Assembly: GCA_038321825.1 (NCBI GenBank)
Contig: JBBQFK010000001.1
Location: forward strand, 1,197-65,196
Reading direction: 5' to 3'
DNA: 64,000 bases
From: Cyanophyceae cyanobacterium
Lineage (GTDB): Bacteria > Cyanobacteriota > Cyanobacteriia > Cyanobacteriales > JAAUUE01
The notes under the pieces were generated by a model. That model had not been told where the DNA came from. It ran no database searches and saw nothing but the letters and a program-made list of their open reading frames with translations. Shown here piece by piece: positions 5,795 to 62,355 of this stretch (position 1 is the stretch's first letter; each line of letters begins with the position of its first letter). The translations under genes and the position numbers were made by a program.

Positions 5795-5817
5795 ATAGGG
5801 AGATTATCAAAAAAATC

Positions 5818-14747: not shown

Positions 14748-14787
14748 ATTCCTCTCTCTCTAACTCTTCTCTAACAAGCTCTTGAAT

Positions 14788-14967
14788 CTAATTTGGGTTT
14801 TTGGGGCTGATTTGCTCTGAGAGGGCTGGGTGTTGAAAAATATGAGGGCTGCTGTTGATCCGAACTAACTTGAAGCCAAAGCTTTCAACTACACTCACTA
14901 GGTCATTAAAGGCAAAATTATTACTGTTATTGAAGAGCCTTTGAAATAATTTCTGTCGTTTAGTCAT
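14788..14967 (-). pseudogene. Degenerate/truncated HicA-like toxin ORF (59 codons, below the ORF-track cutoff)
   Basis: Hand translation: MTKRQKLFQRLFNNSNNFAFNDLVSVVESFGFKLVRINSSPHIFQHPALSEQISPKNPN*. It resembles the HicA pattern (GF..V...GSHxxFxHP) with the Gly replaced. A TAG stop cuts an otherwise continuing frame (IQELVREELERE). Confidence 0.35.
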
Positions 14968-14974
14968 ATTTTAA

Positions 14975-16690: not shown

Positions 16691-18044
16691 ATTCTTCCCC
16701 CTCCAATTTGCCTCTAAAAAACTCTCTAATCAAAGAATGTAAACGATAAGTACGCAGATCGATATTTTGAAACAGATGGAAACGAATTAGTTTTGCCCTA
16801 GCAGCTTCCAACTCCTCTAGCTCAAATTCCCCCCACTCTGGATTCATTTGATAATATTCCTCCTCAATCCGCTCCACCAACTCCCAAGGAATCGGCGCTG
16901 GGGCAAACAAACTCAACAACTTACCGAGATGTTGACTACCCTCCTCTAGCAACTCCCAACTCAGGTTAAAAGCCGCCTCCACCCCTAACTTTGCTGTAGA
17001 TGTTAGAGTTTCCTGCTCCACATCCAGAGATTTGTGTCGTAGAGCCTGACGAATTTTTGCCTTTTCTTGTAAGCGAAACAACAAAGTCGATAGGGACAAC
17101 TCCGGTAAGGCAACTAAGTAGCGCCCCACCAACTCCAAACCTAGGGGAAGATACTCCAACCAAGTACAGAGAGTTGCCGCTATTTCTGGCTCTTGATCGA
17201 TCCGCTCCTGCCCAATGATTGACCCTAACAATTCTAGGGATTGCTCCAAACTCAGCACCTCTAGAGGCAGCATCTGGATGGGTGAGCCAAACTTTAGCCG
17301 GGTAGTCATCAATACCTTAAAACGAGCATCCTTCGGTGGCAAGTATGGCTCTACGATGGGGTAGCTGACAACATCATCTAGAACCACCAACACATCACCC
17401 GATCGCCAATTTCGCCAACAAAATGCTACCTGATCGTCAACCTTATCCAACCCTTCAGGAACCTTCAGCCCCATCTGTGCTTGAGCAAAGCTAACAATTT
17501 GAGTTCCAATATTCTCACTTCTAGCGAATAGCCAACACAACCCGCCCTGATAAACCTCCTCATACTTTTCTGCATACTGGATCGCCAGTTCAGTTTTACC
17601 CACACCTCCCATGCCAGCGATCGCCGAAATCGCCACCAAAGTACCTTGCTGTAACTGATTATGAAGAGTTAGCAGGGCATCTTCTCGTCCCACAAACCTC
17701 GTCACCCCACTACGGGGAATGTTTTTAGGGATGCCCACAGGCTGGAGCGACTTCAAAAGTTCCCCCAAAGCCTCATGCAAAACATCCTGTAATACTTCCG
17801 GCTTCACATCATTCAGGTGAATCCCAATATTGGCAATTCCCCCCGTCACCCAGGTTTGAAACCCCTTCGCATTGCCTTGATTGATCTGGATCAAATTGCG
17901 ATCGCCTTGAATTGCTTCTCCTAACTGGGAGTTGACATCAATGCGTTGCTTCACCAGCCCCACCAACTTCGCCACATCCGCTTGGGGATTATCTTGGAGG
18001 ATTTCTGCCGTAAGCTGGCATAACTGCGTAATTAAATCTGTCAT
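16671..18044 (-). CDS. NB-ARC STAND NTPase (bacterial NLR core) with N-terminal Q/N/G-rich signalling motif
   Basis: Walker A GMGGVGKTELA, Walker B VLVVLDDV, RNBS-B-like KVLMTTR, GLPL-like YLPLGLELVGRYL. N-terminal residues 47-78: GDRNLIQINQGNAKGFQTWVTGGIANIGIHLN. Confidence 0.85.
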   Translation of the reverse strand: MTDLITQLCQLTAEILQDNPQADVAKLVGLVKQRIDVNSQLGEAIQGDRNLIQINQGNAKGFQTWVTGGIANIGIHLNDVKPEVLQDVLHEALGELLKSLQPVGIPKNIPRSGVTRFVGREDALLTLHNQLQQGTLVAISAIAGMGGVGKTELAIQYAEKYEEVYQGGLCWLFARSENIGTQIVSFAQAQMGLKVPEGLDKVDDQVAFCWRNWRSGDVLVVLDDVVSYPIVEPYLPPKDARFKVLMTTRLKFGSPIQMLPLEVLSLEQSLELLGSIIGQERIDQEPEIAATLCTWLEYLPLGLELVGRYLVALPELSLSTLLFRLQEKAKIRQALRHKSLDVEQETLTSTAKLGVEAAFNLSWELLEEGSQHLGKLLSLFAPAPIPWELVERIEEEYYQMNPEWGEFELEELEAARAKLIRFHLFQNIDLRTYRLHSLIREFFRGKLEGEEYVTDVS

Positions 18045-18070
18045 AGTCGCCCTTAGTTGCGAGTCTTAAC

Positions 18071-23099: not shown

Positions 23100-23159
23100 T
23101 TTCTGGGAATAATTAGCTCTAGCTAAATCAGTAGATCGGGTGCAACTCTAAGGTGGTTT

Positions 23160-24701
23160 ATGAAAAATAGAATTTTATTTTGCGGGCTGTTTTTTAGCGT
23201 GTTTATCTTTAGTATTTTTTTTAGTAATTCTAGAGGCTTGGCGATCGATCATCTTGCTAATTCTTTTATTAATCCCGAAGCTCGATCGATCCCTACTTTG
23301 TTGGCAGGGGTTCTCCCTGAAGATGAAGACATCAATCAAGAAGCAGAAACTCAGATGGCAGATCAGATGATGGCTAACTATGAAAACTGGGACAATCGGG
23401 CTAGAGAACAGGTGGCAACCAATCTTCAAAGCGGCGACTGGGATCAGGCTCTGAACCAACTGGAGAATACTTGGGAGCAGGATCTGCAAACGTTTTATGG
23501 GGAAAATGCCCCAAGGCGGGAGGTCAATCTCCAACAATTGCAGCAAACTTTAGCTGGTCTAGATCAAGAAACGGGACAAAAAAGTGCGATCGTCTATCTA
23601 GCTTCCCGCCCCAGTAGCCTCGAAGTTCTCTTGGTAACTGCCGATGCACCCCCGGCTCGCCATAGTATTGTCGAAGCCAAACGAGATTTATTATTCAAAA
23701 CTGCGGGACAATTGATCCTCCGCATTGATAACAAAGAACGGACAACGGGGAGGTCTTATCTAACTCCGGCAAGGCAACTCTATCGCTGGATTATAAATCC
23801 CTTAATTCCCCAACTCGATCGACAGGAGATTAATAACCTGATTTTTGTCACTGACTATGGGTTGCGATCGATCCCCATGGCAGTCCTTCACGATGGTCAG
23901 CAATTCCTGATCGAAAAATACAGCATTGCCAACAGCCCCAGCTTTAGCATGATCAATACTCGCTTCAAAAGCCTGCAAGAATCGCCAATCTTAGCCATGG
24001 GGGCCTCCACTTTTATTAATCAAGAGCCATTACCTGCGGTTCCGGTGGAGTTAAGAATGATTACCCAAGACCGGGGCAGGGGAGAGTCTTTTTTGAACCA
24101 ACCCTTTACCGTTAATAATCTGATCAGCCAACGTCAACGCCAGCCCTTTGAAATTGTGCATCTGGCAACCCACGCTGGTTTTAATGATGGCAGTCCCGAT
24201 CGCTCCTATATTCAATTTTTTGATAGTCAACTCCTCCTTAATGACCTAGGGAAATTAGGCTTAAATAATCCTCCCGTTAGTTTGCTGGTAATTAGTGCTT
24301 GTCAAAGTGCGATCGGGAATCGGAATGCCGAACTGGGCTTTGGGGGTTTGGCTCTCAAAAGTGGTGTAGATACGGTGGTGGCAAGTCTTTGGTATGTTAG
24401 TGATGAAGGAACTCTTGCCCTCATGAGTGAATTTTATCGCTATCTCCGTACTGCCCCCATCAAAGCCCAAGCTCTCCGACAGGCACAGATCGCAATGTTG
24501 CAGGGAAATATCCGCATTGAAAATGGGCAGCTAATTACTCAAACTAATTTAGTCAACGATATCGCCAATAATCCAATTAATAATCCAGCGAATAATCAAA
24601 CTAGTATTACCCTGCCCCCAGAGTTGAGGAACTTGAATATCCAGAATCTTACCCATCCCTACTACTGGTCATCTTTTGTGATGCTGGGTAGCCCTTGGTA
24701 A
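23160..24701 (+). CDS. Signal-anchored CHAT-domain (caspase-fold) protease
   Basis: N-terminal hydrophobic MKNRILFCGLFFSVFIFSIFF. Catalytic dyad context IVHLATHAGF and LLVISACQSA. Confidence 0.8.
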   Translation: MKNRILFCGLFFSVFIFSIFFSNSRGLAIDHLANSFINPEARSIPTLLAGVLPEDEDINQEAETQMADQMMANYENWDNRAREQVATNLQSGDWDQALNQLENTWEQDLQTFYGENAPRREVNLQQLQQTLAGLDQETGQKSAIVYLASRPSSLEVLLVTADAPPARHSIVEAKRDLLFKTAGQLILRIDNKERTTGRSYLTPARQLYRWIINPLIPQLDRQEINNLIFVTDYGLRSIPMAVLHDGQQFLIEKYSIANSPSFSMINTRFKSLQESPILAMGASTFINQEPLPAVPVELRMITQDRGRGESFLNQPFTVNNLISQRQRQPFEIVHLATHAGFNDGSPDRSYIQFFDSQLLLNDLGKLGLNNPPVSLLVISACQSAIGNRNAELGFGGLALKSGVDTVVASLWYVSDEGTLALMSEFYRYLRTAPIKAQALRQAQIAMLQGNIRIENGQLITQTNLVNDIANNPINNPANNQTSITLPPELRNLNIQNLTHPYYWSSFVMLGSPW

Positions 24702-37230: not shown

Positions 37231-40200
37231 CTAACTCTTATCTCGATCGCACACCTCCGGCGACCCATTAGGATTGTGATTTTTATAATCTGCTAACCAA
37301 GTACAGCCTTGTCTAATTAAACTCTCCAAATTAAGATTCCATACAACTACTCGCCCATCTTGATCTGCCGATACTAGAAAATTACCATCTTCGCTAAAAC
37401 TTGCTTCAAAAATAGCTTCACTATGGCTGGTACTAAGAGTAGTGATCAGGTTGCCATCCAAGCGCCAAAACTTCAGGGTTTTATCTTCGCTAACCGAGGC
37501 GATCGACTTCCCATCGGTTGCAAAACCCACCCAGTTCACCGAGCCATTATGTCCCCGGAGAGTGGTGATTAAAGTTCCATCCATACTCCACAGGCGAATT
37601 GTCCCCTTATTCGTCGCCGCCGCCAAAAATTTACCATCGGCAGATATTGCCAAGTAATTCACTGCCCCGTTATTTTCTGTCAAAGTTCGCAAAAGTTGAC
37701 CATCCAAGCTCCAAATCTTCACCGTCTGGTCATCGCTGCCCGTGGCGATCAACTTTCCCCCCGGTGCAAAAGCCACTGTATTTACATTATCTTCATGCCC
37801 CACCAAAGTATGCAGAAGTTCTCCCGCCGGATTCCAAATCTTGGCAGTTTTATCCCTACCAGCACTTGCCATCAGGCGATCGTCCAAGGAGAAAGCCACC
37901 CCATTTACCCCGCCCTCGTGAGCCTTAATCGTTTGCATCAAATCTCCCTTATCTGTCCACAGGCGCACCGTTTCGTCATCACTGCCACTGACTAAAAACT
38001 TGCCATTGTGGGAAAAAACTACACTGTTGATAGCTTCCGTATGCGCCTTTAATTCCTTCAGGAGATTTCCCCGCGTTGACCATAACCGGATCAGGTGATC
38101 TTGGCTCCCGGTGGCGATCGACTCTCCCCTAGGACTAACGCTAACTGCATTCACCGCCTCTGATTGGATAATCTTCTGGGTAAAATCATTCCGCCGCCAA
38201 AACTTCACCGTACTATCCCCACTACCACTAGCCAAAATCTGCCCATCAGGGCTAAAACCCACCGCCCGGACTAAATTCCCATGTCCCCGGAAGGTATCAA
38301 TTAATTTTCCTGCCAAATCCCAAACTTGCACCGTATTATCTGCATTACCCACCGCTAACATTCGGCTATCAGGGCTAAACGCCACACTCAAAACCCAATC
38401 TTGGCTGACTTGCCAATCCCGACTTGGAGCCTGATTCCACGGTTCATTTGGTGTAGCTCGCTGCCAGAGAAATATCCTCCCATTAGTGCCTGTAACTGCC
38501 AAAGCCTGATGATTGGGGGCAAATTTGACACTAGTAATCACCTTGTCTGTATCCTGCCCCGGAGCTTGCCACGACTGCTGCCGTTGAAATTCCCCCCTAG
38601 CATCCTGCTGCCAAAAAATCACTAAGCCATCCGCCCCTACGGAAACTAAGGTCTTGCCATCCGGGGCAAAATCTATCCCCAACACTCGATTACTATGTCC
38701 CTGCAAGGTACTAACTAACTGCCCTTGGAGATTCCAAATTTTAATAGTTTTATCCCAACTGCCACTGGCGATCACCTGCCCGTCTGGACTGAAAACTACA
38801 GAACTCACCGTCCCCTCGTGGGCGTTGGCAGAGCCTGCTTCAGTGGAGATTGTCCTAACTACTTTGCCTGTAGCGTAGTTCCATATCTGTACCTGTTTCC
38901 CTGTTCCCCCGGTGGCGATGAGTTGACTATTAGGAGAAAAACTAACACTATCCAGTTCTCCTCCTGCCCCGGCTAATTCCCGAAGTAACTGCCCTTGGGG
39001 ATTCCAGATTTTAATAGTTTGGTCTTTGCTAGCAGTGGCAAGGAGTTGACCATTGGGGGAGAAGGCTAAACCCATGACCCAATCTGTGTGTCCTTCGAGG
39101 CGATTACTTTCCCGGATTTGGTCGATCGTCTGTTGCAGGGTCGTCAGTACCCGGATATTCGTATCCACACTAGCACCCCAAAAACCAGTTAAAATTCGCC
39201 CCGCCTTCAGGCTTTCCACCAGAGCATCAAACTTCCGACTGGAGAGGATCAAACTTTCTGAAGAAGAGACGATCGCCCCAATTTGAGTATTGGTTTCCTT
39301 CAGGGATGCTTGGATGGCAAAAACCCCCGTCAACATAGCCATAGTTAAAAATCCCAAACCCCACAACCTTGCCCCAGTTAATCTTTGTTGGAGAATTTGA
39401 TTAAGTTTATTTTCACTATCTTGTTGTCCTAGTTTCGCTGTAGTCAATTCGGCAATCAAAGCTTTTTCTCGTAGGGCAAATTCTAGCCTTTCAATAGTTT
39501 CTTGATTACTAATTTGGCGTTGTTTATAATCTTCGATCTGAAGCTTCGTATTAACTTCTTCTCGCTGCCGAATAAACTCGACTAAATAGTCATGAACTAA
39601 CTGATAACGAGGAAAGGGAATTTCTGGTAAGAGAAATACTAAACCCGACTTTTCAAGGATTTCTAAAATTAGGTCTAAGGTTGGATGAAAGGCTCCTTGA
39701 TCTAATTCTAGATCGGCAATTAATTCGAGGCGAGTTTTCAGGGGACGGATATTATTTTCTGCTGTGAGGAAATATAAAACCTGCCAAGCCATCGCCGCAT
39801 TTTCTACCCCGCAATCTTGGACTACTTGTGCTAAAAATCTTTCTGCTAGACGTTGCTTTAATCCAGATTCATGATACTGCTCTAGGGTTGTAATATTTTC
39901 TGACTGGACTTGAGCGCCAACTAACTGGAGTTCAATGGGGCGAATTTCCTGATTTTTTCCGGCTAGTTCGGCAACTATTTCATTAATTAAATCTGGCTCT
40001 ATTTCAAAATCAGCCCGATGGGTGAGGGTAGTGACGACCGATCGAGCATCAGTAATTGAGAAGTTACCAAGGGAATAGCGAATTCTGCGATCGAGGATGT
40101 TATTATTAATGGGATCAAGTAATACCTGTTCACTATTTAGGAGATAATGTAAGCCATCTTCCCGCAGAGATAAGATTACCTTGACGTAGGAAATATTTAG

Positions 40201-42258
40201 GCAATCTCGTAGAAATTCAAAAAAATCAGTTCGCTGCTGATTGTCAGTATTATAGAAGAAAAATTCCTCAAATTGATCAAAGATAATTACCGTAAGGGCG
40301 TGTTGTTTTTCCTGTTGCCTGAGATGTTCTAAGATAATTACGAGGGGAGTATCAATTTCTAGGGAAAGGGCTTTTGCTAGTTCCTTCAGCCAGTTTGTAT
40401 AAACTTGAATTGTGATAGTTATAGCGACTCGATCGCCCACTCCCTGTTCTTGGAGAGTAGGAATTAAACCTGCATGAATTAAGGAACTTTTGCCCACACC
40501 AGATTCTCCGTGGAGAACGATTAAGCGATGGTCTGCCCGGCTAAGACGGCTCATCATATTTTGCAGGTCTTGATAGCGACTAGAAACCCGAATTTCGGCG
40601 GCTACCGTGGTTTGCATACCGTTTAAGGTTGGAAAAGATTTCCCATAAACGGGTTGGGGTTGCAATCTTCTGGCACCAATAAAAGCCCGAAAGCCATAAA
40701 GCTGCTCTACTGATAGTTGTTGCTGTTTAATATGAAAGGCTTCTAGATAGCAACCTTGGTCAAAATATAAATTTCTGAGTTGTTTGAGAATATCTAAATA
40801 GTGTTGGGGATCAGCCCGATGATCACTAAGTTTTAGGGCTACATCTAGTTGTTTTGTCGCAATAGATAAATTTTGTTGGGCTTGACTAGTATTACCTAAA
40901 GCTGTGTGGGCTTTGACAAGAAATAATCGATAGAGTTGCCCCAATAATAATCCTTGCAGAATTAAGGGATGCTCGGTTAAAGATGCTGTGACGGGAGGAA
41001 ATTCTCGAACTAAACTTTCTAGAGCTTGACTGGCTAATTTGATACTATCTTGCCAACGAGCTTGGGCGATCGCTACCATTGCCAAAAAACCATAATCTTG
41101 AGCCATTTCGATAGTTTTTCCGCAGGTTTCATGGATTAATCTAGCTCGTTCTGCCAAGTCCTTGAGCGGAGTCCATGCTTGTAAATACTGGAGAATTTCA
41201 CCCTGCTGACTGAGAATTTGGGATACTAATTCGGGACAATTTACTTGACTTAAATAGTTAACTGCCTGTTCCATTGCTAGCCAAGCAGATTGCCAGTGTA
41301 ATTGTTTTTGAGCCTGTTGTCTTTCTGCCAAGCGACAATAGCAAAGGGCAATATTAGCTAATACTAAACCTTGGGCTTGTTTATCACTATTCGTCTGCCA
41401 AAATTCTAGGGATAATTGATAGTGGAGGAGAGCCTGTTCTAATTCCTGTTGGCTATAGGCTTTCCTGCCCAAAACAAACTCTAGCTTTGCGGATAGTTCT
41501 AGGGGTAATTGATATTTATAGTCTTCTAAATCTCTGAAAGCAAAATCTAGTTCTAAAGTTTCTTCACTCAGGTCTTGTATAGTTAAATACTGCTGTAATT
41601 GTTGGGGATGATTGTAAATACTATTAACTTTGACTTCGAGGAGATTAACTAGTTCTAAATAATTTAACTGGAGACTAATGGGAGTCACAGCCCAGTTATT
41701 AAAGTCTGGGGCATAACGAATTAAGCTAGTGAGGATGCGATCGTTCACTACCAGAATTATAGGAAAAGGAAATTTATTGCGAAATTCATCTCTAATTTGG
41801 TTAGCAGAGGTCAATAATCCAGCTAAATCAATGACATTTTCTAACCCCAAAATAATTAGGGCATCTGGGAAGTTTTCTGGTGGAGATTGTCCTAGATTAT
41901 TTACAATACTATCGGCAATATTATCTACAACATTACCTACAAGACTATCTGCAACATCACCTGTAATATTATCTACAAAATCATCTACAAAATCATCTAC
42001 AACATTATCTACAAGACTATCGGCAATACTAGAATAAATACTTGTAGTTTGTGGAGGAAGATCAATCTTTAGTAGATTGTGATCAGGGGGCAGATAAATT
42101 GATAATTCTTCTAGATATTTATCCCGGAGTTGCTGATAGTTGCAATGCATCAAAATTAAGGAAAATTCCCCAAGAGACAGGGTAATTGCCCGGACTAAAC
42201 TATTAAGCGCCTGTTGGTTTCTCGCTGCTACATCATCTAGGGAATATGGCTCGCCCAT
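37231..42258 (-). CDS. Giant STAND-type NTPase: P-loop-less N-terminal domain, TPR-like helical region, P-loop NTPase, hydrophobic helix, 14 WD40 repeats
   Basis: Walker A LHGESGVGKSS (nt 40486-40509), Walker B VIIFDQFEEFFF, hydrophobic LWGLGFLTMAMLTGVFAIQASL (residues 965-986). 14 blades end in xxxW motifs (IKIWN, VQIWN, VKFWR and others). Confidence 0.85.
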   Translation of the reverse strand: MGEPYSLDDVAARNQQALNSLVRAITLSLGEFSLILMHCNYQQLRDKYLEELSIYLPPDHNLLKIDLPPQTTSIYSSIADSLVDNVVDDFVDDFVDNITGDVADSLVGNVVDNIADSIVNNLGQSPPENFPDALIILGLENVIDLAGLLTSANQIRDEFRNKFPFPIILVVNDRILTSLIRYAPDFNNWAVTPISLQLNYLELVNLLEVKVNSIYNHPQQLQQYLTIQDLSEETLELDFAFRDLEDYKYQLPLELSAKLEFVLGRKAYSQQELEQALLHYQLSLEFWQTNSDKQAQGLVLANIALCYCRLAERQQAQKQLHWQSAWLAMEQAVNYLSQVNCPELVSQILSQQGEILQYLQAWTPLKDLAERARLIHETCGKTIEMAQDYGFLAMVAIAQARWQDSIKLASQALESLVREFPPVTASLTEHPLILQGLLLGQLYRLFLVKAHTALGNTSQAQQNLSIATKQLDVALKLSDHRADPQHYLDILKQLRNLYFDQGCYLEAFHIKQQQLSVEQLYGFRAFIGARRLQPQPVYGKSFPTLNGMQTTVAAEIRVSSRYQDLQNMMSRLSRADHRLIVLHGESGVGKSSLIHAGLIPTLQEQGVGDRVAITITIQVYTNWLKELAKALSLEIDTPLVIILEHLRQQEKQHALTVIIFDQFEEFFFYNTDNQQRTDFFEFLRDCLNISYVKVILSLREDGLHYLLNSEQVLLDPINNNILDRRIRYSLGNFSITDARSVVTTLTHRADFEIEPDLINEIVAELAGKNQEIRPIELQLVGAQVQSENITTLEQYHESGLKQRLAERFLAQVVQDCGVENAAMAWQVLYFLTAENNIRPLKTRLELIADLELDQGAFHPTLDLILEILEKSGLVFLLPEIPFPRYQLVHDYLVEFIRQREEVNTKLQIEDYKQRQISNQETIERLEFALREKALIAELTTAKLGQQDSENKLNQILQQRLTGARLWGLGFLTMAMLTGVFAIQASLKETNTQIGAIVSSSESLILSSRKFDALVESLKAGRILTGFWGASVDTNIRVLTTLQQTIDQIRESNRLEGHTDWVMGLAFSPNGQLLATASKDQTIKIWNPQGQLLRELAGAGGELDSVSFSPNSQLIATGGTGKQVQIWNYATGKVVRTISTEAGSANAHEGTVSSVVFSPDGQVIASGSWDKTIKIWNLQGQLVSTLQGHSNRVLGIDFAPDGKTLVSVGADGLVIFWQQDARGEFQRQQSWQAPGQDTDKVITSVKFAPNHQALAVTGTNGRIFLWQRATPNEPWNQAPSRDWQVSQDWVLSVAFSPDSRMLAVGNADNTVQVWDLAGKLIDTFRGHGNLVRAVGFSPDGQILASGSGDSTVKFWRRNDFTQKIIQSEAVNAVSVSPRGESIATGSQDHLIRLWSTRGNLLKELKAHTEAINSVVFSHNGKFLVSGSDDETVRLWTDKGDLMQTIKAHEGGVNGVAFSLDDRLMASAGRDKTAKIWNPAGELLHTLVGHEDNVNTVAFAPGGKLIATGSDDQTVKIWSLDGQLLRTLTENNGAVNYLAISADGKFLAAATNKGTIRLWSMDGTLITTLRGHNGSVNWVGFATDGKSIASVSEDKTLKFWRLDGNLITTLSTSHSEAIFEASFSEDGNFLVSADQDGRVVVWNLNLESLIRQGCTWLADYKNHNPNGSPEVCDRDKS

Positions 42259-43568
42259 AACTGAAATTGTTTGGTTTCTTCCAAGGCAGGATTGAGGCTA
42301 TACCAACAACCTTGCTGGTCTCGGTACTCGAATACTAGCATACTCTTCAGGAGGGTTTGATATTCTTCATCGCCCTTGACTGTCTGTTCTTGAACTACTT
42401 GAAATAATAAATCCCACTCTTGATTATCGATGGGCGAAACGAGAAAATCCCGGCGTTGTCTGATGGCAGTTTCTAGGCATTCACGAGAAATAGGTGGGTC
42501 TTCCTGCCGGAGACAGTCGTAGAGTAAGCCCAACAGATTCCGTAGATGACCACCGCTAATTTGGCAGAGGCGATCGAGGGTATCGAGACTATCAAATACT
42601 TCAGAAACTAGGTTTAATCTTTCTGTCACCGTAGCATCGGGAAAAGCTCTAGAAAGCACCAGATGGCGGAGCAAATCTAGTCCGGGTTGATAAAACTGCC
42701 CATCCCTCGATCGCACCTGTACCATCGGCAGCACTTGGGGAATTAGACCACCCCCCAGACGATTTTTCAGGGTTTCGGCATCGCTACAAAAAGCCAAGGC
42801 AAGGGGAATTGTATAGACAATATGGCAGGCTAGTTGCCGGAGTTCATCGCCCCGATCGATAAAAAGATATTCTGGTTGCGATCGTCCAGAGGGCAGGAGT
42901 CGATAGGTGATCCGATCGAGGTTGTCTATGATTACCACCAAGCCCGCTTTCCCTCGGCGTTGAAGTTCAGTTTGGACGGGTTTAATTAATTCTGTATTAA
43001 TAGCAGCTAAAATATTGCTGGTTCTGGGTTCGAGGTATTCTCGGAGACGACGGCGGACTTGGGGAGATTCCTTCGTCCGGGCGTGAATCTTGGCAATTCC
43101 TAGGGATATTTCTGCCTCCGCATTGAGTTCTATGGGGGTTTGCAAAAATTGCCCAATATCTTGAAATAAACGAGTAAATAGTCCGGGTTGCAGTTTGATC
43201 TTAATCCCCGCCAAGGCTTCACTCACCTGCCAAGCGATCGCCAGCAAAATATCCGTAATATCTACGTCTGCCACGTCAAGGTACTGACTAGATTCAAAAT
43301 AAACCACCACAAAGCCCTGCTGCTCTAGCTCGGCCTGCAATCGTAATAACTCTGTAGATTTCCCTGCCCCAATGTGTCCCGTAAATAGCTGACAGGTGGG
43401 TTCATCGGGGGAGATTCTGGTAATTGTACGTTTGAGAGCCTCGATCATTTTCCCGCCCCGCACTGCGGAGAGGTCTATGTAATATTTCCGGTCTTCTTCC
43501 ACACTGACAACGAGAGGTTTACTGGGATTACAAGCCTTGTAGAATTTAGTTAGATCGATCGCTCCCAT
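42237..43568 (-). CDS. Stand-alone P-loop ATPase, translationally coupled to the giant WD40 NTPase
   Basis: Walker A FTGHIGAGKSTELL, Walker B GLVVIIDNLDRI. The 3' end overlaps the downstream start by 22 nt. Confidence 0.7.
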   Translation of the reverse strand: MGAIDLTKFYKACNPSKPLVVSVEEDRKYYIDLSAVRGGKMIEALKRTITRISPDEPTCQLFTGHIGAGKSTELLRLQAELEQQGFVVVYFESSQYLDVADVDITDILLAIAWQVSEALAGIKIKLQPGLFTRLFQDIGQFLQTPIELNAEAEISLGIAKIHARTKESPQVRRRLREYLEPRTSNILAAINTELIKPVQTELQRRGKAGLVVIIDNLDRITYRLLPSGRSQPEYLFIDRGDELRQLACHIVYTIPLALAFCSDAETLKNRLGGGLIPQVLPMVQVRSRDGQFYQPGLDLLRHLVLSRAFPDATVTERLNLVSEVFDSLDTLDRLCQISGGHLRNLLGLLYDCLRQEDPPISRECLETAIRQRRDFLVSPIDNQEWDLLFQVVQEQTVKGDEEYQTLLKSMLVFEYRDQQGCWYSLNPALEETKQFQLWASHIP

Positions 43569-43626
43569 AGTCGCACCTCAGAGTTTTTATCAGCCACCCC
43601 GACCTTTTGTATCACTAATTATTTTA

Positions 43627-44022
43627 CTAGGCATCACAGATTCCTAACAGGCGACATTCTTTTTGTCGATCGTTCCTAGCTGCCGTGAGCCAATGAAAAG
43701 AGCTAGTTAAAGAGCTAGTTAAAGAGCTAGTTAAAGATTCAGCTAAAGAGCTAGTTGCAGAATTAATCTGGGGAGCAGGCTGCCTCGAACTGATAAGAGC
43801 ATGATTAGATTCCACTCTGGGGCTACCAGATACTTGGGCTGTCCCTGTCATGGCTGCTGGATCAGTCATCACCGTACTACCTAAGTTTATCTCTCCAAAA
43901 GTATTTTCTGGAAGTATTGGTTGTGGAGGGAGAGTTCCTAGTTGAGAGCCAAGAACTGAGCCGACCGCAGGCAAAAGTAGCAATCCCTTGGTAAAAGATT
44001 CCTTGGTTAAAGATTTCTGCAT
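43627..44022 (-). CDS. Hypothetical small protein with possible signal sequence and LTSS repeats
   Basis: ORF only: GLLLLPAVGSVLG hydrophobic N-terminus and a 12-nt repeat-encoded LTSSLTSSLTSS. Weak support. Confidence 0.3.
   Translation of the reverse strand: MQKSLTKESFTKGLLLLPAVGSVLGSQLGTLPPQPILPENTFGEINLGSTVMTDPAAMTGTAQVSGSPRVESNHALISSRQPAPQINSATSSLAESLTSSLTSSLTSSFHWLTAARNDRQKECRLLGICDA
43698..43757. repeat. 12-nt tandem repeat (AGAGCTAGTTAA-like) x4-5
   Basis: Read directly inside ORF 43627-44022. Confidence 0.8.
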
Positions 44023-51711: not shown

Positions 51712-52560
51712 TTAGCTAGCGCCCCAACTCAGTCGCCGGGAGTTATTGAGATCGTTATTGAGATCGTTATTTAGATTATTGAGGGGATTAAAGGTTTTAT
51801 TTTGAAGTTTCTGCTCGACGATCGCCTGAATTCCACTAAAAATCAGGTCTGGATCAATAACCAGTTGCCCTGACCAAGCGGGATCCAGTCCTTGGAGGTA
51901 TTTTTCAATAATCGGGGCATCACCACCCGTTAGGACAATTTTACTTTCAGGAAATTGTTGCTGCCAATCTTGGACAAAATCCCTTACCCCCGCCAACAGA
52001 GTATAAACTACGCCGCTCCGAATGGCTTCGATCGTACTCCTGCCCCACCGACTCGGCACATCAATCCGACTCCTGCCCAAAAAAGGTAGAGCCGCAGTTC
52101 CCCCCACCAGCGATCGTAACTGGAGATCCAATCCCGGTAAAATCGCCCCGCCGACCATTTCTAGCTGAGGTTTGGCTATACCCCCTGTGAAAGTCAGAGC
52201 TGTACCACCATCTACCACTAAGGAGGAAACCTGCCATTTTTCTAGGGCGGCATAAACTGCCAAGGCTCGATCGATCCCCAAACTAGAATACATCCCGTCT
52301 AAAGGCACATCATCAAGGACAATCTCACGGCTATTGGGATATTTACGCCAAATCTGAGTTTGTTGGGGAACCACAGAGGCGAAAAATAGGGGAATCTCTG
52401 GAGACTCTTTACCGGGAGGTTCTAGGGGCAGAAACTGCTGCCACGGATAGGTTTGCATTTCTAAGGAGTGGGGTGTATCCCACCTATTGACGAGGGCATG
52501 ATTGCGGAAGTATGCCCAGTGCGATCGAGAATTACCAATTACCAATCCTAACCAATCCAT
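51712..52560 (-). CDS. coaX: Type III pantothenate kinase
   Basis: LVIGNSRSHWAYF, VVDGGTALTF and LTGGDA. The C-terminal tail is extended by LNND repeats. Confidence 0.8.
   Translation of the reverse strand: MDWLGLVIGNSRSHWAYFRNHALVNRWDTPHSLEMQTYPWQQFLPLEPPGKESPEIPLFFASVVPQQTQIWRKYPNSREIVLDDVPLDGMYSSLGIDRALAVYAALEKWQVSSLVVDGGTALTFTGGIAKPQLEMVGGAILPGLDLQLRSLVGGTAALPFLGRSRIDVPSRWGRSTIEAIRSGVVYTLLAGVRDFVQDWQQQFPESKIVLTGGDAPIIEKYLQGLDPAWSGQLVIDPDLIFSGIQAIVEQKLQNKTFNPLNNLNNDLNNDLNNSRRLSWGAS
51742..51786. repeat. In-frame 12-nt tandem repeat (GTTATTGAGATC-like) x3.5 at the 3' end of coaX
   Basis: Read directly. Encodes LNNDLNNDLNN. Confidence 0.85.
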
Positions 52561-55480: not shown

Positions 55481-55507
55481 TTATGCTGATTATGCTGATT
55501 ATGCTGA
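55481..55507. repeat. 9-nt tandem repeat (TTATGCTGA)x3
   Basis: Read directly at the junction between the permease start and the exosortase-like stop. Confidence 0.85.
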
Positions 55508-56404
55508 ATTTTGTTGTTTATTTGGGTGTTTGTGCGGGTTCGATCGAGAAAAATCTAGCAAAAATTTACACAATACCCCCCAGATTAGCACAGCAAATAC
55601 CGGAAAAAGTTGCCCGCCCTGTCCTGTGTGCCAGTAGTTAAAAGCTAAGGGATAGGGAACGATCGCTGCCAAGACCGCTACCCGGATAGCATTAATAATA
55701 TAGGCAATCACCACTGCTACCATGGGGATGATCAATTTTTGACGGCGACTAGTGGGCAACAAGAAAATTCCGGCGAGCGACAATACCCACAATTGCAACA
55801 TCATATCTACTCCAGCACAGCCCCTAGCCACGATCACAGAATTATTTGCCGTGGGCAGGGCAGCACCAATGGTCAGGACAATTTCCTTTTGGATGTAGCC
55901 GAGGTGAGCATCGAAACCTAGACTTTGCAGCAAGAAATGGGAGAGGTTGGCAGTAATTGTTTCCCAGTCTGCGAGACGATGGACTAATCCGGGGGGCAGG
56001 GCAGTGAGGAGTGTGAGGGTTAATTCTTGTTTGTGTCGCTGTATTCCTCCAAATCCTGCCGCTATTAGACCCAAGCCTAGGCAGATCAAAAAGGGGGCAA
56101 ATCTAATAAATGTGTGATAACCAGTTAGAGAAAAACCCACTATGAGGACGATCTCCACGATTCCCCAACCCAGAATATTCGCCCCGGTATTTGCCCAATT
56201 ATTAAACCAGCGTAAATTTTCTTCTAGGGGTTGCTTTCTTTTTTCCCACACCAACAACCCGCAGACAAACCAGACAAGGATGCTGCTATTAATAAGAGTA
56301 GAATCATTGGGCTGGCGCAAGACCAGAGAAATATGAACAGCTATGAGGAGTGCTGCAAGGGCAAGTAATCTATAAAGTTTCCCAGAAAAAGTTTTAGACG
56401 GCAT
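55499..56404 (-). CDS. Exosortase-family intramembrane transpeptidase (cyanoexosortase-like)
   Basis: Polytopic 301 aa with the Cys/Arg/His signature in family order: ARGCAGVDMM, INAIRVAVL, NYWHTGQGG. Confidence 0.6.
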   Translation of the reverse strand: MPSKTFSGKLYRLLALAALLIAVHISLVLRQPNDSTLINSSILVWFVCGLLVWEKRKQPLEENLRWFNNWANTGANILGWGIVEIVLIVGFSLTGYHTFIRFAPFLICLGLGLIAAGFGGIQRHKQELTLTLLTALPPGLVHRLADWETITANLSHFLLQSLGFDAHLGYIQKEIVLTIGAALPTANNSVIVARGCAGVDMMLQLWVLSLAGIFLLPTSRRQKLIIPMVAVVIAYIINAIRVAVLAAIVPYPLAFNYWHTGQGGQLFPVFAVLIWGVLCKFLLDFSRSNPHKHPNKQQNSA

Positions 56405-57472: not shown

Positions 57473-57526
57473 GGTAAAGGAGGTAAAGGAGGTAAAGGAG
57501 GTAAAGGAGGTAAAGCAAGTAAAGAT
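57473..57526. repeat. 9-nt tandem repeat (GGTAAAGGA)x4 plus 2 degenerate units; contains 4 tandem AAAGGAGGT
   Basis: Read directly. Ends 4 nt upstream of the nucleoside hydrolase ATG. Confidence 0.9.
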
Positions 57527-59107: not shown

Positions 59108-59494
59108 ATGAAAATTATGTCTATGACATCCAACTTAGAAAATAGCAATCTGAGTAATTCAATTAATCTAGCGAATACTCCAGAGTGGTTAGTAGATTTA
59201 GAAGAAACGGAAATGGAAGTAGTTACTGGCGGACTTTTATTTAACGGTTGGTATCAACGTTGGTTAAATAACTTCAAATCTGGCAGATTAGACTTCTTCC
59301 GGGCGCAACGGATGGTGGGTCGTCTTTTGAATGAAGAAGCGGCAGGGAATACCCCCACGAATAATGCGATCGGCTTCAACTGGTGGAGTACCCTGTCTCC
59401 CAATGATCAATTTCAATGGAATGTAGGCGTAGTCCAAGCAATTAATGCTAATGTGCCACCAACGGTAAATTATGGCTTCCGTCCCTTCGGTTAA
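59108..59494 (+). CDS. Double-glycine-leader peptide precursor (bacteriocin-like/exported peptide)
   Basis: The leader ends in LVDLEETEMEVVTGG. It has hydrophobic residues at -4, -7, -12 and -15 and Glu at -8 relative to the GG at nt 59228-59233. The 86-aa core is Trp/Asn-rich and has no Cys. Confidence 0.5.
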   Translation: MKIMSMTSNLENSNLSNSINLANTPEWLVDLEETEMEVVTGGLLFNGWYQRWLNNFKSGRLDFFRAQRMVGRLLNEEAAGNTPTNNAIGFNWWSTLSPNDQFQWNVGVVQAINANVPPTVNYGFRPFG

Positions 59495-59550
59495 GTTTGC
59501 CTAACTAGGTTTGAATAGTTTGAGATGGAAGTTTTTAGGGGGTAGAAATA

Positions 59551-62355
59551 GTGAGAAGAGTTTTGCTTTTGCTGGCAGCTTTGGCTACTTGCTTGGTAGT
59601 TATTGTTAGCAATAGGTTGACTAGTAATGGGGAAATTTTTCCAACTTTAGTCTCTAGTTTAAGTTCTAATTTTTTATCTACCCCTGCCCAAGCTCAAACT
59701 ACAAGTCAAACCATAAATCAACCTAGAAAGCAAATCACCGCCCCAGATCAAATAGATCAAATAGATCAAATAGATCAAATAGCTGCCCCCCAACTTCTTT
59801 CTCTCTACCAACCGATTCAAAATATTGTCTGGGAAGGTCAATATCTTAGCCAAAAAGGGATTTCCTACTTCTCCAATCGGGGGGAAGCCCAGCTTACGGA
59901 TTTTGGGACAGGGGATGCTCTCAGGGAAGCGATCGCCCTCCATGCTAACGGGGAATACGATCGAGCCATTCCTACCTATCTAGCAAGTTTGGAGGAAACT
60001 AGAAATACTACCACCCGGGATCAAGCACAGGAAATCATGCTCTTGGGAAACTTGGGTTTAGCCTATGCTGCCACTGGGTTGTACTACGAAGCGATCGATT
60101 ATTTCAATCAATATTTTGCTCAAACTTGGCACAAAGCCTACTACTACCAAGGCACGGATCCAAAACTTGGTGGACTAGCCCTTGGGAATATTGGCAAGAT
60201 CTATTTAGCTGGAGATGTCTATCTGAAGGCGATCGAAACCTTAGAAAAACGGCTGACCTTATCCCAAGAAATTAGAGACCCCCTAGGAGAAGCCCAAGCC
60301 CTCGGCGATTTGGGAATGGTGTATCAAGCCATTGGAGAATATCCAAAAGCCCAAGAATTTCAAGAAAAATCCCTAGCTCTAGCCCGTACTCTCCAGAACG
60401 ATCGAGCCATTGGTCAAGCTCTGTCTAATTTGGGAATTGTCTACCACGCCCTTGCCAACTATCCCCAAGCCATCAGCTTCCAACAGCAATACCTAGATCT
60501 CCTACGGCGTAATCAGCAAAGTAATCAGGGTTCACCGACCCAAAGGAAGAGTCAACGTCTCAACGAAGTTCAAGCTCTGGGAAATCTGGGGGGAGCCTAC
60601 TATTTGCAGGGGGATGTCGATCGAGCCATTAGTCTCTACGAAGAGGGGATTAAAATTGCATTTGAAATTGCTGAAGGAAGGATGGCTGCCATTATTCGCA
60701 ACAACTTGGCTCTAGCCTACGCCCAAAAATACAATAACAAGCCCACTCCCCAAGACCAACAAAAATTACTAGAATTTTATCGGCAATTTGTTAATAACAT
60801 TCCTCCCCAATCCGGGAGTTTAGAAGGGTTAGCTAGAAACAATTTTGCTGTTGCCTACAACCGAGCCAATAATCCCGCTAGTGCTGAAAGTCAATTTATA
60901 CGGGGGATAGAATCATGGGAAAAAGTCCGCCAGAACCTAGGCAGTAACGATGGTTACAAGGTTTCATTTCTGGAAACCCAAGGGGCCATTTATAACAATT
61001 TCCAAAAATTTCTGACGGAACAAAATAAAGTCGAGCAAGCCCTAGAAATTTCGGAACGGGGCAGAGCCAGAACCTTTGTGGATCTAATCTCCCGCCGTCT
61101 GACCCCCAGAACTACCCAAGCCCCGAAGGTAGAGCCGATCGCCGTGGCGCAGATGCAGAAAATTGCTCAGGATGAAAAGGCTACTCTAATTGAGTATTCG
61201 ATTATTTATGAAGATTTTGTTGTTAATAATCAACTGCGTCCCCAAGAATCAGAGTTATTTATTTGGGTCGTGCAGCCCACGGGGAAAATTTCCCAACGCC
61301 GAGTAGACCTCAAGCCCTTGGCACAGGGAAAGCAAACTTCCTTAGCTGAATTAGTAAACCGTACCCGTGATGCCTTGGGAGTAGGGCGAGGTGGTGGCAG
61401 AAATACTTATCCCCAGTTGTTACAGGAATTACATCAGATATTAATTGACCCGATCGCCGACCTATTACCGCCGCCCTTAGCCTCCACAGAACTAGCTAAT
61501 CCTGCCATCGATCCTGCTACAAACCCAGAGCGCTTGATTATTATTCCCCATCGGAGCTTATTCCTATTACCTTTCCCCGCCCTGCAAGATGCCCAAGGAA
61601 AATATCTAATTGATAAATACGCTCTGCAAACTGCTCCTTCTATTCAGGTGTTGCAACTCACCCAACGCCAAGGAAACTCTGGACAGGAGGTTTTGATTGT
61701 GGGAAATCCTACCATGCCCCTGATTACTATTCCCGGCACTCCACCCCAACGCTTAGAAGATTTGCCGGGGGCAGAACAGGAGGCTGTGAATATTGCCCAA
61801 ATATTTAAGGTGTCAGCAATTACTGGAGATCAAGCCACGAAGGCGGCGATCGTTCGCCAGATGCCCCAAGCAAAAATTATTCACTTCGCAACTCACGGAT
61901 TACTGGATGATTTTAGTGGTGGTGGTGTACCAGGGGCGATCGTCCTTGCCAATTCCCCTGCTAATTCTCCTGCTAATGCTAATAATGCTCAAGCTGCTCC
62001 CAATGTTTCCCAACTCAATCAGGGACTGCTGACGGCGACAGATATTCTCAATCTCCGACTCACTAGTCAATTGGTGGTGCTGAGTGCCTGTGATACGGGA
62101 CGGGGGAAAATTACTGGGGATGGGGTGATCGGGTTGTCTCGATCGTTCATTGCTGCCGGAGCCGCTAGTGTCTTGGTTTCCCTGTGGGCTATTCCTGATA
62201 CCTTCACTGCCGAACTCATGGAGACTTTTTACCAGCAGTTGCAATCAAATCCTGATGAGGCCCTAGCCCTGCAACAAGCCACGATCGCCACCAAAGCCAA
62301 ACATCCCCATCCCCAAAACTGGGCAGCCTTCACTCTCATCGGCGAAAAATCTTAA
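59551..62355 (+). CDS. Signal-anchored TPR + CHAT-domain protease
   Basis: N-terminal MRRVLLLLAALATCLVVIV. Central TPR units (ALGDLGMVYQAIGEYPKAQEF and others). CHAT dyad context IIHFATHGLL and LVVLSACDTGRG. Confidence 0.85.
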   Translation: MRRVLLLLAALATCLVVIVSNRLTSNGEIFPTLVSSLSSNFLSTPAQAQTTSQTINQPRKQITAPDQIDQIDQIDQIAAPQLLSLYQPIQNIVWEGQYLSQKGISYFSNRGEAQLTDFGTGDALREAIALHANGEYDRAIPTYLASLEETRNTTTRDQAQEIMLLGNLGLAYAATGLYYEAIDYFNQYFAQTWHKAYYYQGTDPKLGGLALGNIGKIYLAGDVYLKAIETLEKRLTLSQEIRDPLGEAQALGDLGMVYQAIGEYPKAQEFQEKSLALARTLQNDRAIGQALSNLGIVYHALANYPQAISFQQQYLDLLRRNQQSNQGSPTQRKSQRLNEVQALGNLGGAYYLQGDVDRAISLYEEGIKIAFEIAEGRMAAIIRNNLALAYAQKYNNKPTPQDQQKLLEFYRQFVNNIPPQSGSLEGLARNNFAVAYNRANNPASAESQFIRGIESWEKVRQNLGSNDGYKVSFLETQGAIYNNFQKFLTEQNKVEQALEISERGRARTFVDLISRRLTPRTTQAPKVEPIAVAQMQKIAQDEKATLIEYSIIYEDFVVNNQLRPQESELFIWVVQPTGKISQRRVDLKPLAQGKQTSLAELVNRTRDALGVGRGGGRNTYPQLLQELHQILIDPIADLLPPPLASTELANPAIDPATNPERLIIIPHRSLFLLPFPALQDAQGKYLIDKYALQTAPSIQVLQLTQRQGNSGQEVLIVGNPTMPLITIPGTPPQRLEDLPGAEQEAVNIAQIFKVSAITGDQATKAAIVRQMPQAKIIHFATHGLLDDFSGGGVPGAIVLANSPANSPANANNAQAAPNVSQLNQGLLTATDILNLRLTSQLVVLSACDTGRGKITGDGVIGLSRSFIAAGAASVLVSLWAIPDTFTAELMETFYQQLQSNPDEALALQQATIATKAKHPHPQNWAAFTLIGEKS
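59746..59781. repeat. In-frame 9-nt tandem repeat (GATCAAATA)x4 (encodes DQI x4)
   Basis: Read directly inside the TPR-CHAT gene. Confidence 0.9.

What the first reader, a model, noticed from the sequence alone, without database searches (positions are those of the whole stretch)
59108..62355. Double-glycine-leader peptide gene immediately upstream of a secreted TPR-CHAT protease, with no C39 transporter nearby
The 128-aa ORF has a leader ending in LVDLEETEMEVVTGG. This fits the double-glycine consensus: hydrophobic residues at -4, -7, -12 and -15, Glu at -8, and GG at -2/-1. It is followed by an 86-aa core with no Cys that is rich in Trp and Asn (LLFNGWYQRWLNNF...NWW...FQWN...). Such leaders are normally cut by C39-peptidase ABC exporters, but none is in the window. 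Instead, 56 bp downstream lies a signal-anchored TPR-CHAT protease. Possibilities are an exported bacteriocin or signalling peptide whose maturation, sensing or immunity involves the CHAT protein, or a coincidental neighbour.
Basis: partly seen in the sequence, partly recalled or inferred. Interest (0 to 1): 0.55.

Follow-up and report, generated by a model that had tools for sequence, protein, structure and literature searches.

The report
Orphan double-glycine secreted protein beside CHAT protease
A small, conserved cyanobacterial gene encodes a protein with a classic double-glycine export leader whose transporter lies elsewhere in the genome, and its TPR-CHAT protease neighbour looks like an inherited, often-broken adjacency rather than a required partner.

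Summary
ORF 59108-59494 is a real gene under strong purifying selection (core dN/dS about 0.06). W(-16), L(-12), M(-7) and G(-2)G(-1) are invariant in all 16 aligned relatives. The window has no C39/ABC/HlyD gene. A TPR-CHAT gene with an N-terminal hydrophobic segment starts 56 bp downstream.

The family is small, cyanobacterial and unannotated. Two remote homologs lie next to divergent C39-ABC transporters, one also followed by HlyD. The leader is therefore a transporter-cleaved export signal, and the window gene is an orphan substrate.

The CHAT link is weaker. Orthologous peptide-CHAT pairs occur in five lineages, with three different upstream neighbours. The junction is disrupted in at least four others:
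- relocation in two lineages;
- inversion in one;
- a 620-nt insertion in one.

A fifth lineage lacks a CHAT neighbour; its CHAT location is unknown.

That is as often as the peptide's upstream junction is broken. CHAT homologs at 46-56% identity, with the same N-terminal motif, lie in contexts with no peptide.

Best reading: a new family of a known kind, with CHAT as an ancestral neighbour, possibly co-transcribed where adjacent. A functional peptide-CHAT module is not excluded (about 0.2). Interest is modest.

The parts
59108..59494 (+). Precursor gene of a small secreted protein (128 aa) with a double-glycine leader
   Evidence: ORF listed. Homologs. Purifying selection. No Pfam match, and only a sub-threshold NCBIfam match confined to the leader.
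59108..59182 (+). Variable, Asn/Ser/Leu-rich N-terminal part of the leader (residues 1-25), with repeat-like length variation between relatives
   Evidence: Alignments. pN of 0.56-0.66 in distant pairs, close to neutral.
59183..59233 (+). Conserved recognition part of the leader (residues 26-42, EWLVDLEETEMEVVTGG). The predicted cleavage site is after G42.
   Evidence: W27, L31, M36, G41 and G42 are invariant in 16 family representatives. They match L(-12)xxxE(-8)L(-7)xxxxGG (PMC6959990, PMC6363468). Sub-threshold matches to NF038167, TIGR03949 and TIGR01847 fall here.
59234..59491 (+). Predicted mature protein (residues 43-128; 86 aa, basic, Trp/Asn/Phe-rich, no Cys, no membrane-spanning segment)
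   Evidence: Composition. Most core positions are invariant within the close family. dN/dS of about 0.06. The AlphaFold2 model is low-confidence, mostly helical (pLDDT 46).
59495..59550 (+). 56-bp spacer between the peptide gene and the CHAT gene. No terminator-like hairpin, so co-transcription is possible.
   Evidence: No + strand terminator-like site. The fold is no more stable than shuffles (z = 0.70).
59551..62355 (+). TPR-CHAT protein (934 aa), predicted to be outside the cytoplasm
   Evidence: Pfam CHAT at 225 bits plus several TPR families. Full-length ortholog in L003 at 67% identity. Orthologs listed.
59551..59700 (+). N-terminal hydrophobic segment (residues 4-18, signal peptide or signal anchor) followed by a conserved AQAQ motif
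   Evidence: Kyte-Doolittle maximum of 3.14 at residues 4-18. A hydrophobic N-terminus, usually with an AQAQ-like motif, and then LYQPIQNxxWEGQ are conserved in orthologs. No dedicated signal-peptide predictor was available, so export is an inference.
61417..62346 (+). CHAT protease domain (residues 623-932) with His (ATHG) and Cys (LSAC) motifs intact
   Evidence: Domain limits. The motifs are present in 119 and 120 of 120 homologs respectively and are conserved in the alignment.

Best explanation
The 128-aa ORF encodes the precursor of a small secreted protein. Its conserved leader segment (W-16, L-15, L-12, E-8, M-7, V-4, GG) is recognised in the cytoplasm by the C39 peptidase domain of a peptidase-containing ABC transporter (PCAT) encoded elsewhere in the genome. 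That transporter cuts after Gly42 and exports the 86-aa, basic, Trp/Asn-rich, unmodified core. In a cyanobacterium this would happen together with an HlyD-type adaptor and an outer-membrane channel.

The gene is an orphan substrate. It belongs to a small, unannotated cyanobacterial family whose remote members still sit inside transporter clusters.

The downstream TPR-CHAT gene encodes an independently exported, probably active cysteine protease. It was the peptide's neighbour in the common ancestor of this clade. Where the two genes are 30-56 bp apart it may be co-transcribed with the peptide. It is not needed for leader removal and is not an obligatory partner.

What the mature protein does is inferred only weakly. 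These features favour a conserved extracellular role (matrix, surface or signalling, as shown for EbfG1-4 of Synechococcus) over a strain-level bacteriocin:
- strong purifying selection;
- vertical, apparently single-copy inheritance;
- no adjacent immunity-like gene;
- no hydrophobic segment.

Shown here: gene reality, motif conservation, transporter linkage of the remote homologs, and the pattern of adjacency. Inferred: cleavage, export, the location of the CHAT protein, and function.
For: Gene reality:
- Core dN/dS is about 0.06 in close pairs. In distant pairs pS is about 0.75 against pN of 0.11-0.23.

Leader:
- W27, L31, M36, G41 and G42 are invariant in 16 representatives.
- They match the structurally defined docking positions -12, -7 and -4 plus GG (PMC6959990, PMC6363468).
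- 8 of 12 members give sub-threshold matches to NF038167 and 5 of 12 to TIGR03949. Both are double-glycine-leader bacteriocin families.

Transporter link:
- P0008 lies between a divergent Peptidase_C39 + ABC_membrane + ABC_tran gene and an HlyD gene.
- P0009 lies next to a C39-ABC gene.
- Both share core residues with the window protein (W52, L53, L73, E76, W92, L96, D100).
- Transporter cargo of 66 aa is documented (PMC6959990).
- EbfG1-4 are double-glycine-motif small proteins secreted with the help of the C39 transporter PteB and needed for biofilm formation (PMC4997328).

Orphan status:
- No ABC, C39 or HlyD gene is in the window.

CHAT not obligatory:
- L001 is collinear with the window from 48.6 kb up to the peptide at 78-98% protein identity (95-98% for all genes but the exosortase) and breaks directly after it.
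- An 87%-identical CHAT sits in an unrelated context in related assemblies.
- In Phormidium lacuna HE10JO the peptide and the CHAT gene lie on different contigs in different contexts.
- In L022 the purM-peptide block is inverted.
- The P0006 lineage has no CHAT neighbour.
- CHAT homologs at 46-56% identity, with the same N-terminal motif, lie in contexts with no peptide.
Against: No transporter was shown in this genome.

The peptide-CHAT pair is the only adjacency shared by both main clades. It persists with three different upstream neighbours (purM, PMT_2 glycosyltransferase, cyclophilin) and with short 30-56 bp spacers. No terminator lies between the genes. This pattern would also fit a two-gene operon.

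Both genes evolve faster than their housekeeping neighbours (86-91% against about 97% identity).

The leader is long (42 aa), and the Leu-Leu after GG is conserved. Neither is explained.

The preference for a non-bacteriocin function rests on indirect arguments only.
Confidence: 0.6

Rival explanations
1. The peptide and the TPR-CHAT protein form a functional two-gene module. The transporter-exported core meets the exported CHAT protease outside the cytoplasm. There it is trimmed, activated, degraded (immunity or turnover), or sensed through the TPR domain so as to control the protease.
For: Orthologous pairs, with the peptide at 63-98% and CHAT at 59-99% identity, are adjacent on the same strand in five lineages despite scrambled surroundings. 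A sixth lineage keeps them 620 nt apart. Spacers are 30-56 bp with no terminator. The CHAT His and Cys motifs are intact. Both products are predicted to leave the cytoplasm. In two genomes where the pair is split, both genes are retained.
Against: The junction is disrupted in at least four lineages, and CHAT is missing next to the peptide in a fifth. That is as many events as at the peptide's upstream junction, so there is no sign that the junction is protected. CHAT homologs at 46-56% identity, carrying the same N-terminal motif, lie in contexts with no peptide. Remote peptide homologs pair with the transporter and HlyD, not with an adjacent CHAT gene. CHAT genes are common here: a second one lies in this window, so one ancestral chance adjacency is plausible.
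Confidence: 0.2
2. The mature 86-aa protein is an unmodified class II bacteriocin or microcin-like toxin, comparable in size to colicin V. Its immunity and export genes lie at the distant transporter locus.
For: The double-glycine leader is typical of such toxins. The core is cationic (pI 10.2). Sub-threshold matches are all to bacteriocin leader families. Cyanobacteria hold many such clusters: 145 clusters and 290 precursors in 58 genomes (PMC3140520).
Against: No immunity-like small membrane protein lies next to the gene in any context examined. The core has no hydrophobic or Gly-rich membrane-active stretch (maximum Kyte-Doolittle value 0.63). It is under strong purifying selection, appears single-copy in the DNA examined, and is syntenic among relatives, unlike patchy, fast-changing bacteriocin loci. 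EbfG shows that this leader type serves non-toxic proteins too (PMC4997328).
Confidence: 0.3
3. The gene has lost its link to export. The motif is a relic and the protein acts uncleaved inside the cell.
For: No transporter lies within 64 kb or within 10 kb in any close homolog's locus.
Against: The docking residues and GG are invariant, and leader residues 26-42 are under purifying selection (pN of 0-0.17 for all pairs within the purM- and PMT_2-linked clades). A relic would not keep this.
Confidence: 0.05

Closest known systems
Substrates of peptidase-containing ABC transporters (PCAT/AMS: ComA-ComC, CvaB-colicin V, PCAT1-CtA, LahT)
   Same: The leader has the L(-12)xxxE(-8)[L/M](-7)xxV(-4)xGG geometry. 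The cargo is an unmodified small protein of a size comparable to CtA (66 aa). Remote family members lie next to a C39-ABC gene, and one is also followed by HlyD.
   Different: Met replaces Leu at -7. The leader is long (42 aa) with a variable N-terminal half. No transporter lies near the window gene or its close homologs. Cleavage and export are untested.
EbfG1-4 / PteB of Synechococcus elongatus PCC 7942 (PMC4997328)
   Same: Cyanobacterial small proteins of 6-10 kDa when mature, with a double-glycine secretion motif and no known domain, secreted for a non-antibiotic extracellular role.
   Different: ebfG genes sit in a four-gene operon. The paper does not give the position of pteB relative to ebfG; from my own recollection it is the neighbouring gene. 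No sequence similarity to EbfG was tested or is claimed. The function here is unknown.
NCBIfam NF038167 'CTB family bacteriocin' and other cyanobacterial double-glycine precursors (PMC3140520)
   Same: The best sub-threshold match covers the leader only, in 8 of 12 family members. Same phylum.
   Different: The score of 13.7 bits is far below the 32-bit cut-off. The core is unrelated. No match to Nif11 or NHLP leader models at E <= 1.
CHAT-domain proteases (HetF; type III-E Csx29)
   Same: The neighbour has a full CHAT domain with His and Cys motifs and TPR repeats.
   Different: It has an N-terminal hydrophobic export segment. There is no CRISPR context, and the match to Csx29 is 20 bits against a 300-bit cut-off. 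No substrate is known.

Membership tests
Double-glycine-leader substrates of C39-peptidase ABC transporters | Leader consensus L(-12)xxxE(-8)L(-7)xxxxG(-2)G(-1) with a hydrophobic residue at -4 | tested here: met
   L31, E35, M36 (Met instead of Leu), V39, G41 and G42. Consensus taken from PMC6959990 and PMC6363468.
Double-glycine-leader substrates of C39-peptidase ABC transporters | The motif is conserved among homologs | tested here: met
   W(-16), L(-12), M(-7) and GG are invariant in 16 representatives. Position -4 is Val or Ile in the close family.
Double-glycine-leader substrates of C39-peptidase ABC transporters | A cognate C39-ABC transporter, with HlyD in Gram-negative bacteria, encoded with the substrate | tested here: inconclusive
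   Absent from the window and from 10-kb flanks of close homologs. Present next to the remote homologs P0008 and P0009. The rest of this genome could not be searched.
Double-glycine-leader substrates of C39-peptidase ABC transporters | Cleavage after GG and export of the core | not testable with these tools
   Needs exoproteome mass spectrometry or an in vitro C39 assay.
NCBIfam NF038167 CTB family bacteriocin | Score at or above the curated cut-off of 32 bits | tested here: not met
   13.7 bits, E = 0.054, leader only. Best family member E = 0.001.
Nif11 / NHLP leader precursor families | Match to the leader-domain models | tested here: not met
   No such model was listed at E <= 1 in NCBIfam or Pfam.
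Class II bacteriocin / class II microcin | A dedicated immunity gene next to the structural gene | tested here: not met
   Neighbours are purM and CHAT here, and a methyltransferase, CoaE, a PMT_2 glycosyltransferase or a reverse transcriptase elsewhere. An immunity gene at a distant locus cannot be excluded.
Class II bacteriocin / class II microcin | Antimicrobial activity of the mature peptide | not testable with these tools
   Requires an experiment.
CHAT domain proteases (PF12770) | Domain match above the gathering score, with the catalytic His and Cys present | tested here: met
   225.3 bits against a cut-off of 24. ATHG and LSAC motifs are present.
Type III-E CRISPR Csx29 TPR-CHAT | Match to NF041237 at or above 300 bits, plus a CRISPR/gRAMP context | tested here: not met
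   20.2 bits. The only PADLOC match is a generic TPR model.

The most novel reading that the evidence does not exclude
A transporter-exported small protein and an exported TPR-CHAT caspase-like protease act as an extracytoplasmic pair. The protease would trim, activate or destroy the secreted protein, or the protein would act as the ligand that switches the protease on. This would give a first substrate or regulator for the many exported cyanobacterial CHAT proteins.
Probability: 0.18. Interest if true: 0.6.

Novelty: new member of a known kind. Interest (0 to 1): 0.3.

Why it matters
It adds an unannotated, well-conserved family of about 18 protein clusters, all labelled hypothetical or left unnamed, to the double-glycine-leader secreted proteins of filamentous cyanobacteria. 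Functions in that class are known for very few members.

It also shows that such substrates can sit far from their transporter. Cluster-based genome mining would miss them.

If the minority reading were right, the locus would give a testable candidate substrate or ligand for an exported CHAT protease. I know of no reported substrate for an exported bacterial CHAT protease (own knowledge). As it stands the case is ordinary: a known export signal on a new cargo with an inherited neighbour.

Tried and rejected
- **Structure of the peptide.** AlphaFold2 on the 7-sequence alignment gave mean pLDDT 45.8 and pTM 0.33. That is too poor for a fold search, so none was run.
- **Solved structures.** A profile search of PDB sequences gave no match at E <= 1.
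- **RNA families.** Rfam found nothing over the whole window at gathering thresholds.
- **Defence systems.** PADLOC gave no match for the peptide and only a generic TPR match for CHAT.
- **Promoters and terminators.** Site counts did not exceed the shuffles, and no + strand terminator lies between the genes. Folds of the two intergenic regions were no more stable than shuffles.
- **Exhaustive profile search.** P0007 (1235 aa, 12 matched stretches) is a tandem-repeat protein matched on a short WW/QW motif. I rejected it as spurious.
- **Signal-peptidase site.** I considered the conserved AQAQ as the cleavage site of the CHAT protein. In the window protein it lies about 30 residues after the hydrophobic core, so signal peptide versus signal anchor is left open.
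- **Finding the transporter in this genome.** This could not be done.
- **Literature.** A search for DUF928 together with CHAT found no paper.
Full report
**1. The observation**

The window is from a filamentous cyanobacterium. The closest loci come from Microcoleus and Coleofasciculaceae genome bins.

- ORF 59108-59494 (+, ATG, 128 aa) reads as quoted.
- Counting back from Gly42 gives V at -4, M at -7, E at -8, L at -12, L at -15 and W at -16.
- This fits the published consensus L(-12)xxxE(-8)L(-7)xxxxG(-2)G(-1). In that consensus, positions -12 and -7 form the hydrophobic knot with the C39 domain, and -4 tunes specificity (PMC6959990, PMC6363468).
- The core is 86 aa and 9.9 kDa, with pI 10.2 and no Cys. 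It has 13 Asn, 5 Trp and 8 Phe and no membrane-spanning stretch.
- After a 56-bp spacer, a 934-aa TPR-CHAT gene starts at a GTG (59551-62355). Its CHAT domain scores 225 bits.
- No ORF of 150 aa or more in the window has an ABC signature.
- tblastn with a real C39-ABC transporter and an HlyD protein finds nothing in the window.

**2. The gene is real**

The word-indexed search found six homolog clusters. The exhaustive profile search of 1.84 billion representatives added two remote relatives. The genome and metagenome scans added loci L001-L004 and L029-L033.

- For close pairs the core has dN/dS of about 0.06.
- For distant pairs synonymous sites are saturated (pS about 0.75) while pN is 0.11-0.23.
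- Leader residues 26-42 are also constrained.
- Residues 1-25 evolve nearly neutrally and vary in length through Asn/Leu-rich repeats.

**3. The leader**

In the close family W27, L28, L31, M36, G41 and G42 are invariant. In a 16-sequence alignment of the wider family, W27, L31, M36, G41 and G42 remain invariant. There the leader (consensus NPVWLTELTDAEMExxTGG) is the best-conserved part, while the cores diverge.

8 of 12 members match NF038167 (CTB family bacteriocin) and 5 of 12 match TIGR03949. All these matches are below threshold and confined to the leader. No Pfam model matches. The proteins are labelled hypothetical or left unnamed in every source.

**4. Link to the transporter**

P0008 (107 aa) and P0009 (100 aa) share both the leader and core residues with the window protein: W52, L53, L73, E76, W92, L96 and D100.

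- P0008 lies between a divergently transcribed Peptidase_C39 + ABC_membrane + ABC_tran gene (714 aa) and an HlyD-family gene. This holds in four assemblies.
- P0009 lies next to a C39-ABC gene that is 85% identical to that of P0008.

So the leader type of this family is serviced by such transporters. The window gene and its close homologs are orphan substrates. No transporter lies within 10 kb of any of them.

**5. The CHAT neighbour**

The protein has an N-terminal hydrophobic segment at residues 4-18. Most orthologs then have an AQAQ-like motif followed by LYQPIQNxxWEGQ, which is conserved in all of them. The His (ATHG) and Cys (LSAC) motifs of the CHAT domain are present in 119 and 120 of 120 homologs respectively. 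It is probably an active protease outside the cytoplasm. Export is inferred, because no signal-peptide predictor was available.

**6. Adjacency survey**

| Lineage | Arrangement |
|---|---|
| Window, L029, L009-L011 | purM, peptide, CHAT; 56-bp gap; CHAT 91-99% identical |
| L003, L030 | PMT_2, peptide, CHAT; CHAT 67% identical over its full length |
| L013 | PMT_2, peptide, CHAT; 30-bp gap |
| L031 | PMT_2, peptide, CHAT |
| L032 | cyclophilin, peptide, CHAT; 48-bp gap |
| L002 + L023 (one genome bin) | Contig ends overlap over about 45 nt with two mismatches. About 620 nt carrying two small opposite-strand ORFs separate the peptide and CHAT. |
| L001 | Collinear with the window from 48.6 kb to the peptide at 78-98% identity (95-98% apart from the exosortase), then switches to an opposite-strand methyltransferase. 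An 87%-identical CHAT lies between an Fe-ADH gene and a ferrochelatase gene in related assemblies. |
| L004 + L025 (one assembly, Phormidium lacuna HE10JO) | The peptide is followed by a reverse transcriptase gene. The 64%-identical CHAT is on another contig beside a diacylglycerol-kinase-like gene. |
| L022 | The purM-peptide block is inverted. The peptide lies 1.55 kb from CHAT on the opposite strand. |
| P0006 group (L005-L008) | N6-methyltransferase, peptide, CoaE. No CHAT within 10 kb. |

L012, L014 and L015 end too early to tell.

Homologs of the CHAT protein at lower identity lie in contexts with no peptide:
- At 56% identity: DUF7734, CHAT, then a CHAT-FHA gene.
- At 46-48% identity: CHASE2-cyclase, DUF928, CHAT.

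**7. Reading the survey**

For coupling:
- The pair is the only adjacency shared by the purM-linked and PMT_2-linked clades.
- It has survived three different upstream neighbours.
- The spacers are short, and no terminator lies between the genes.

Against coupling:
- Taking PMT_2-peptide-CHAT as ancestral, the upstream junction changed at least three times. The neighbours seen are purM, cyclophilin and N6-methyltransferase.
- The peptide|CHAT junction changed at least four or five times (L001, L004, L022, the P0006 group and the L002 insertion). The junction is therefore no better protected than its neighbour.
- CHAT homologs occur in many more clusters than the peptide family. There are 262 hits at E <= 1e-50 against about 18 peptide clusters.
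- CHAT genes are frequent here. A second one lies at 23127-24698.

I therefore treat the adjacency as inherited synteny, with possible co-transcription where it persists. I give a true functional module about 0.2.

**8. Function of the core**

There are no modification enzymes nearby, no Cys, no adjacent immunity-like gene and no hydrophobic stretch. Selection is strongly purifying, and the gene is syntenic and seen once in the DNA examined per lineage.

These features fit a conserved extracellular protein of the EbfG kind (PMC4997328) somewhat better than a bacteriocin. This is inference only. The structure model was uninformative and no solved relative exists.

**9. Comparison and verdict**

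It works like a substrate of a C39-peptidase ABC transporter. It meets the sequence criteria for that class, and its remote homologs meet the genomic criterion. It is not a member of NF038167, Nif11 or NHLP by their thresholds. The neighbour is a CHAT protease but not Csx29.

- Novelty: a new, unannotated family of a known kind.
- Interest: modest (0.3).
- The most novel reading not excluded is an extracytoplasmic peptide-CHAT pair (probability about 0.18).

Noticed in passing
window 55499-56404 (-): Cyanoexosortase A (TIGR03763, 170.6 bits against a cut-off of 150) lies 2.7 kb upstream of the peptide gene. The peptide has no PEP-CTERM-like C-terminus, so I saw no link.
   Followed up: partly
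window 23127-24698 (+): A second CHAT-domain protein (524 aa, PF12770 at 227 bits) without TPR repeats. It shows that CHAT genes are frequent in this genome.
   Followed up: partly
window 59745-59782, 61947-61977, 57473-57524, 43697-43756, 51742-51776: Many in-frame 9- and 12-nt tandem repeats lie inside coding regions. Examples are DQI x4 and ANSP repeats in the CHAT gene and FTS x5.8 in the nucleoside hydrolase. Copy number differs between close relatives: P0010 has 2 DQI copies and P0011 has NQI x3. The Asn/Leu-rich start of the peptide leader varies in length in the same way (L002, L022, P0001).
   Followed up: partly
window 1837-3240 (-) and 3797-5791 (+); L004 6029-9914: The PMT_2 glycosyltransferase that sits directly upstream of the peptide in L003, L004, L013, L014, L015, L030 and L031 has its ortholog (63% identity) 56 kb away in the window. 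There it is still next to the same Na/H-exchanger/TrkA gene as in L004. The break that moved the peptide-CHAT pair therefore fell between PMT_2 and the peptide.
   Followed up: partly
L004 11192-12673 (-): A reverse transcriptase gene (RVT_1, 493 aa) lies just downstream of the peptide, where CHAT sits in related lineages. It may be a group II intron or another retroelement at the breakpoint.
   Followed up: no
L002 10483-10825 (-): Two small opposite-strand ORFs (79 and 45 aa, no Pfam match) fill a roughly 620-nt insertion between the peptide and CHAT in the SM2_1_6 genome bin. Their layout resembles a toxin-antitoxin pair, but this is unverified.
   Followed up: partly
L028 2896-8703; L024 9643-14116: More distant homologs of the CHAT protein sit in other recurring contexts. 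One is CHASE2-guanylate cyclase, DUF928, CHAT. The other is DUF7734 (98 aa, 62 nt upstream), CHAT, then a convergent CHAT-FHA gene.
   Followed up: no
window 13656-18065 (-) and 37234-43577 (-): NLR-like signalling ATPase genes. One set is an NB-ARC protein followed by large TPR_12/TPR_10 proteins. The other is an AAA_16 protein followed by a 1688-aa protein with many WD40 repeats.
   Followed up: no
window 5791-7134 (+): A C-5 cytosine DNA methylase gene next to a low-GC stretch (6-8 kb, GC 0.35 against about 0.46 elsewhere). This may be a restriction-modification or mobile insertion.
   Followed up: no
L016 1-92 (-): A 1094-aa TPR-CHAT gene lies about 10 kb from the transporter-linked remote homolog P0008. 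It is too far away, with many unrelated genes between, to count as linkage.
   Followed up: no
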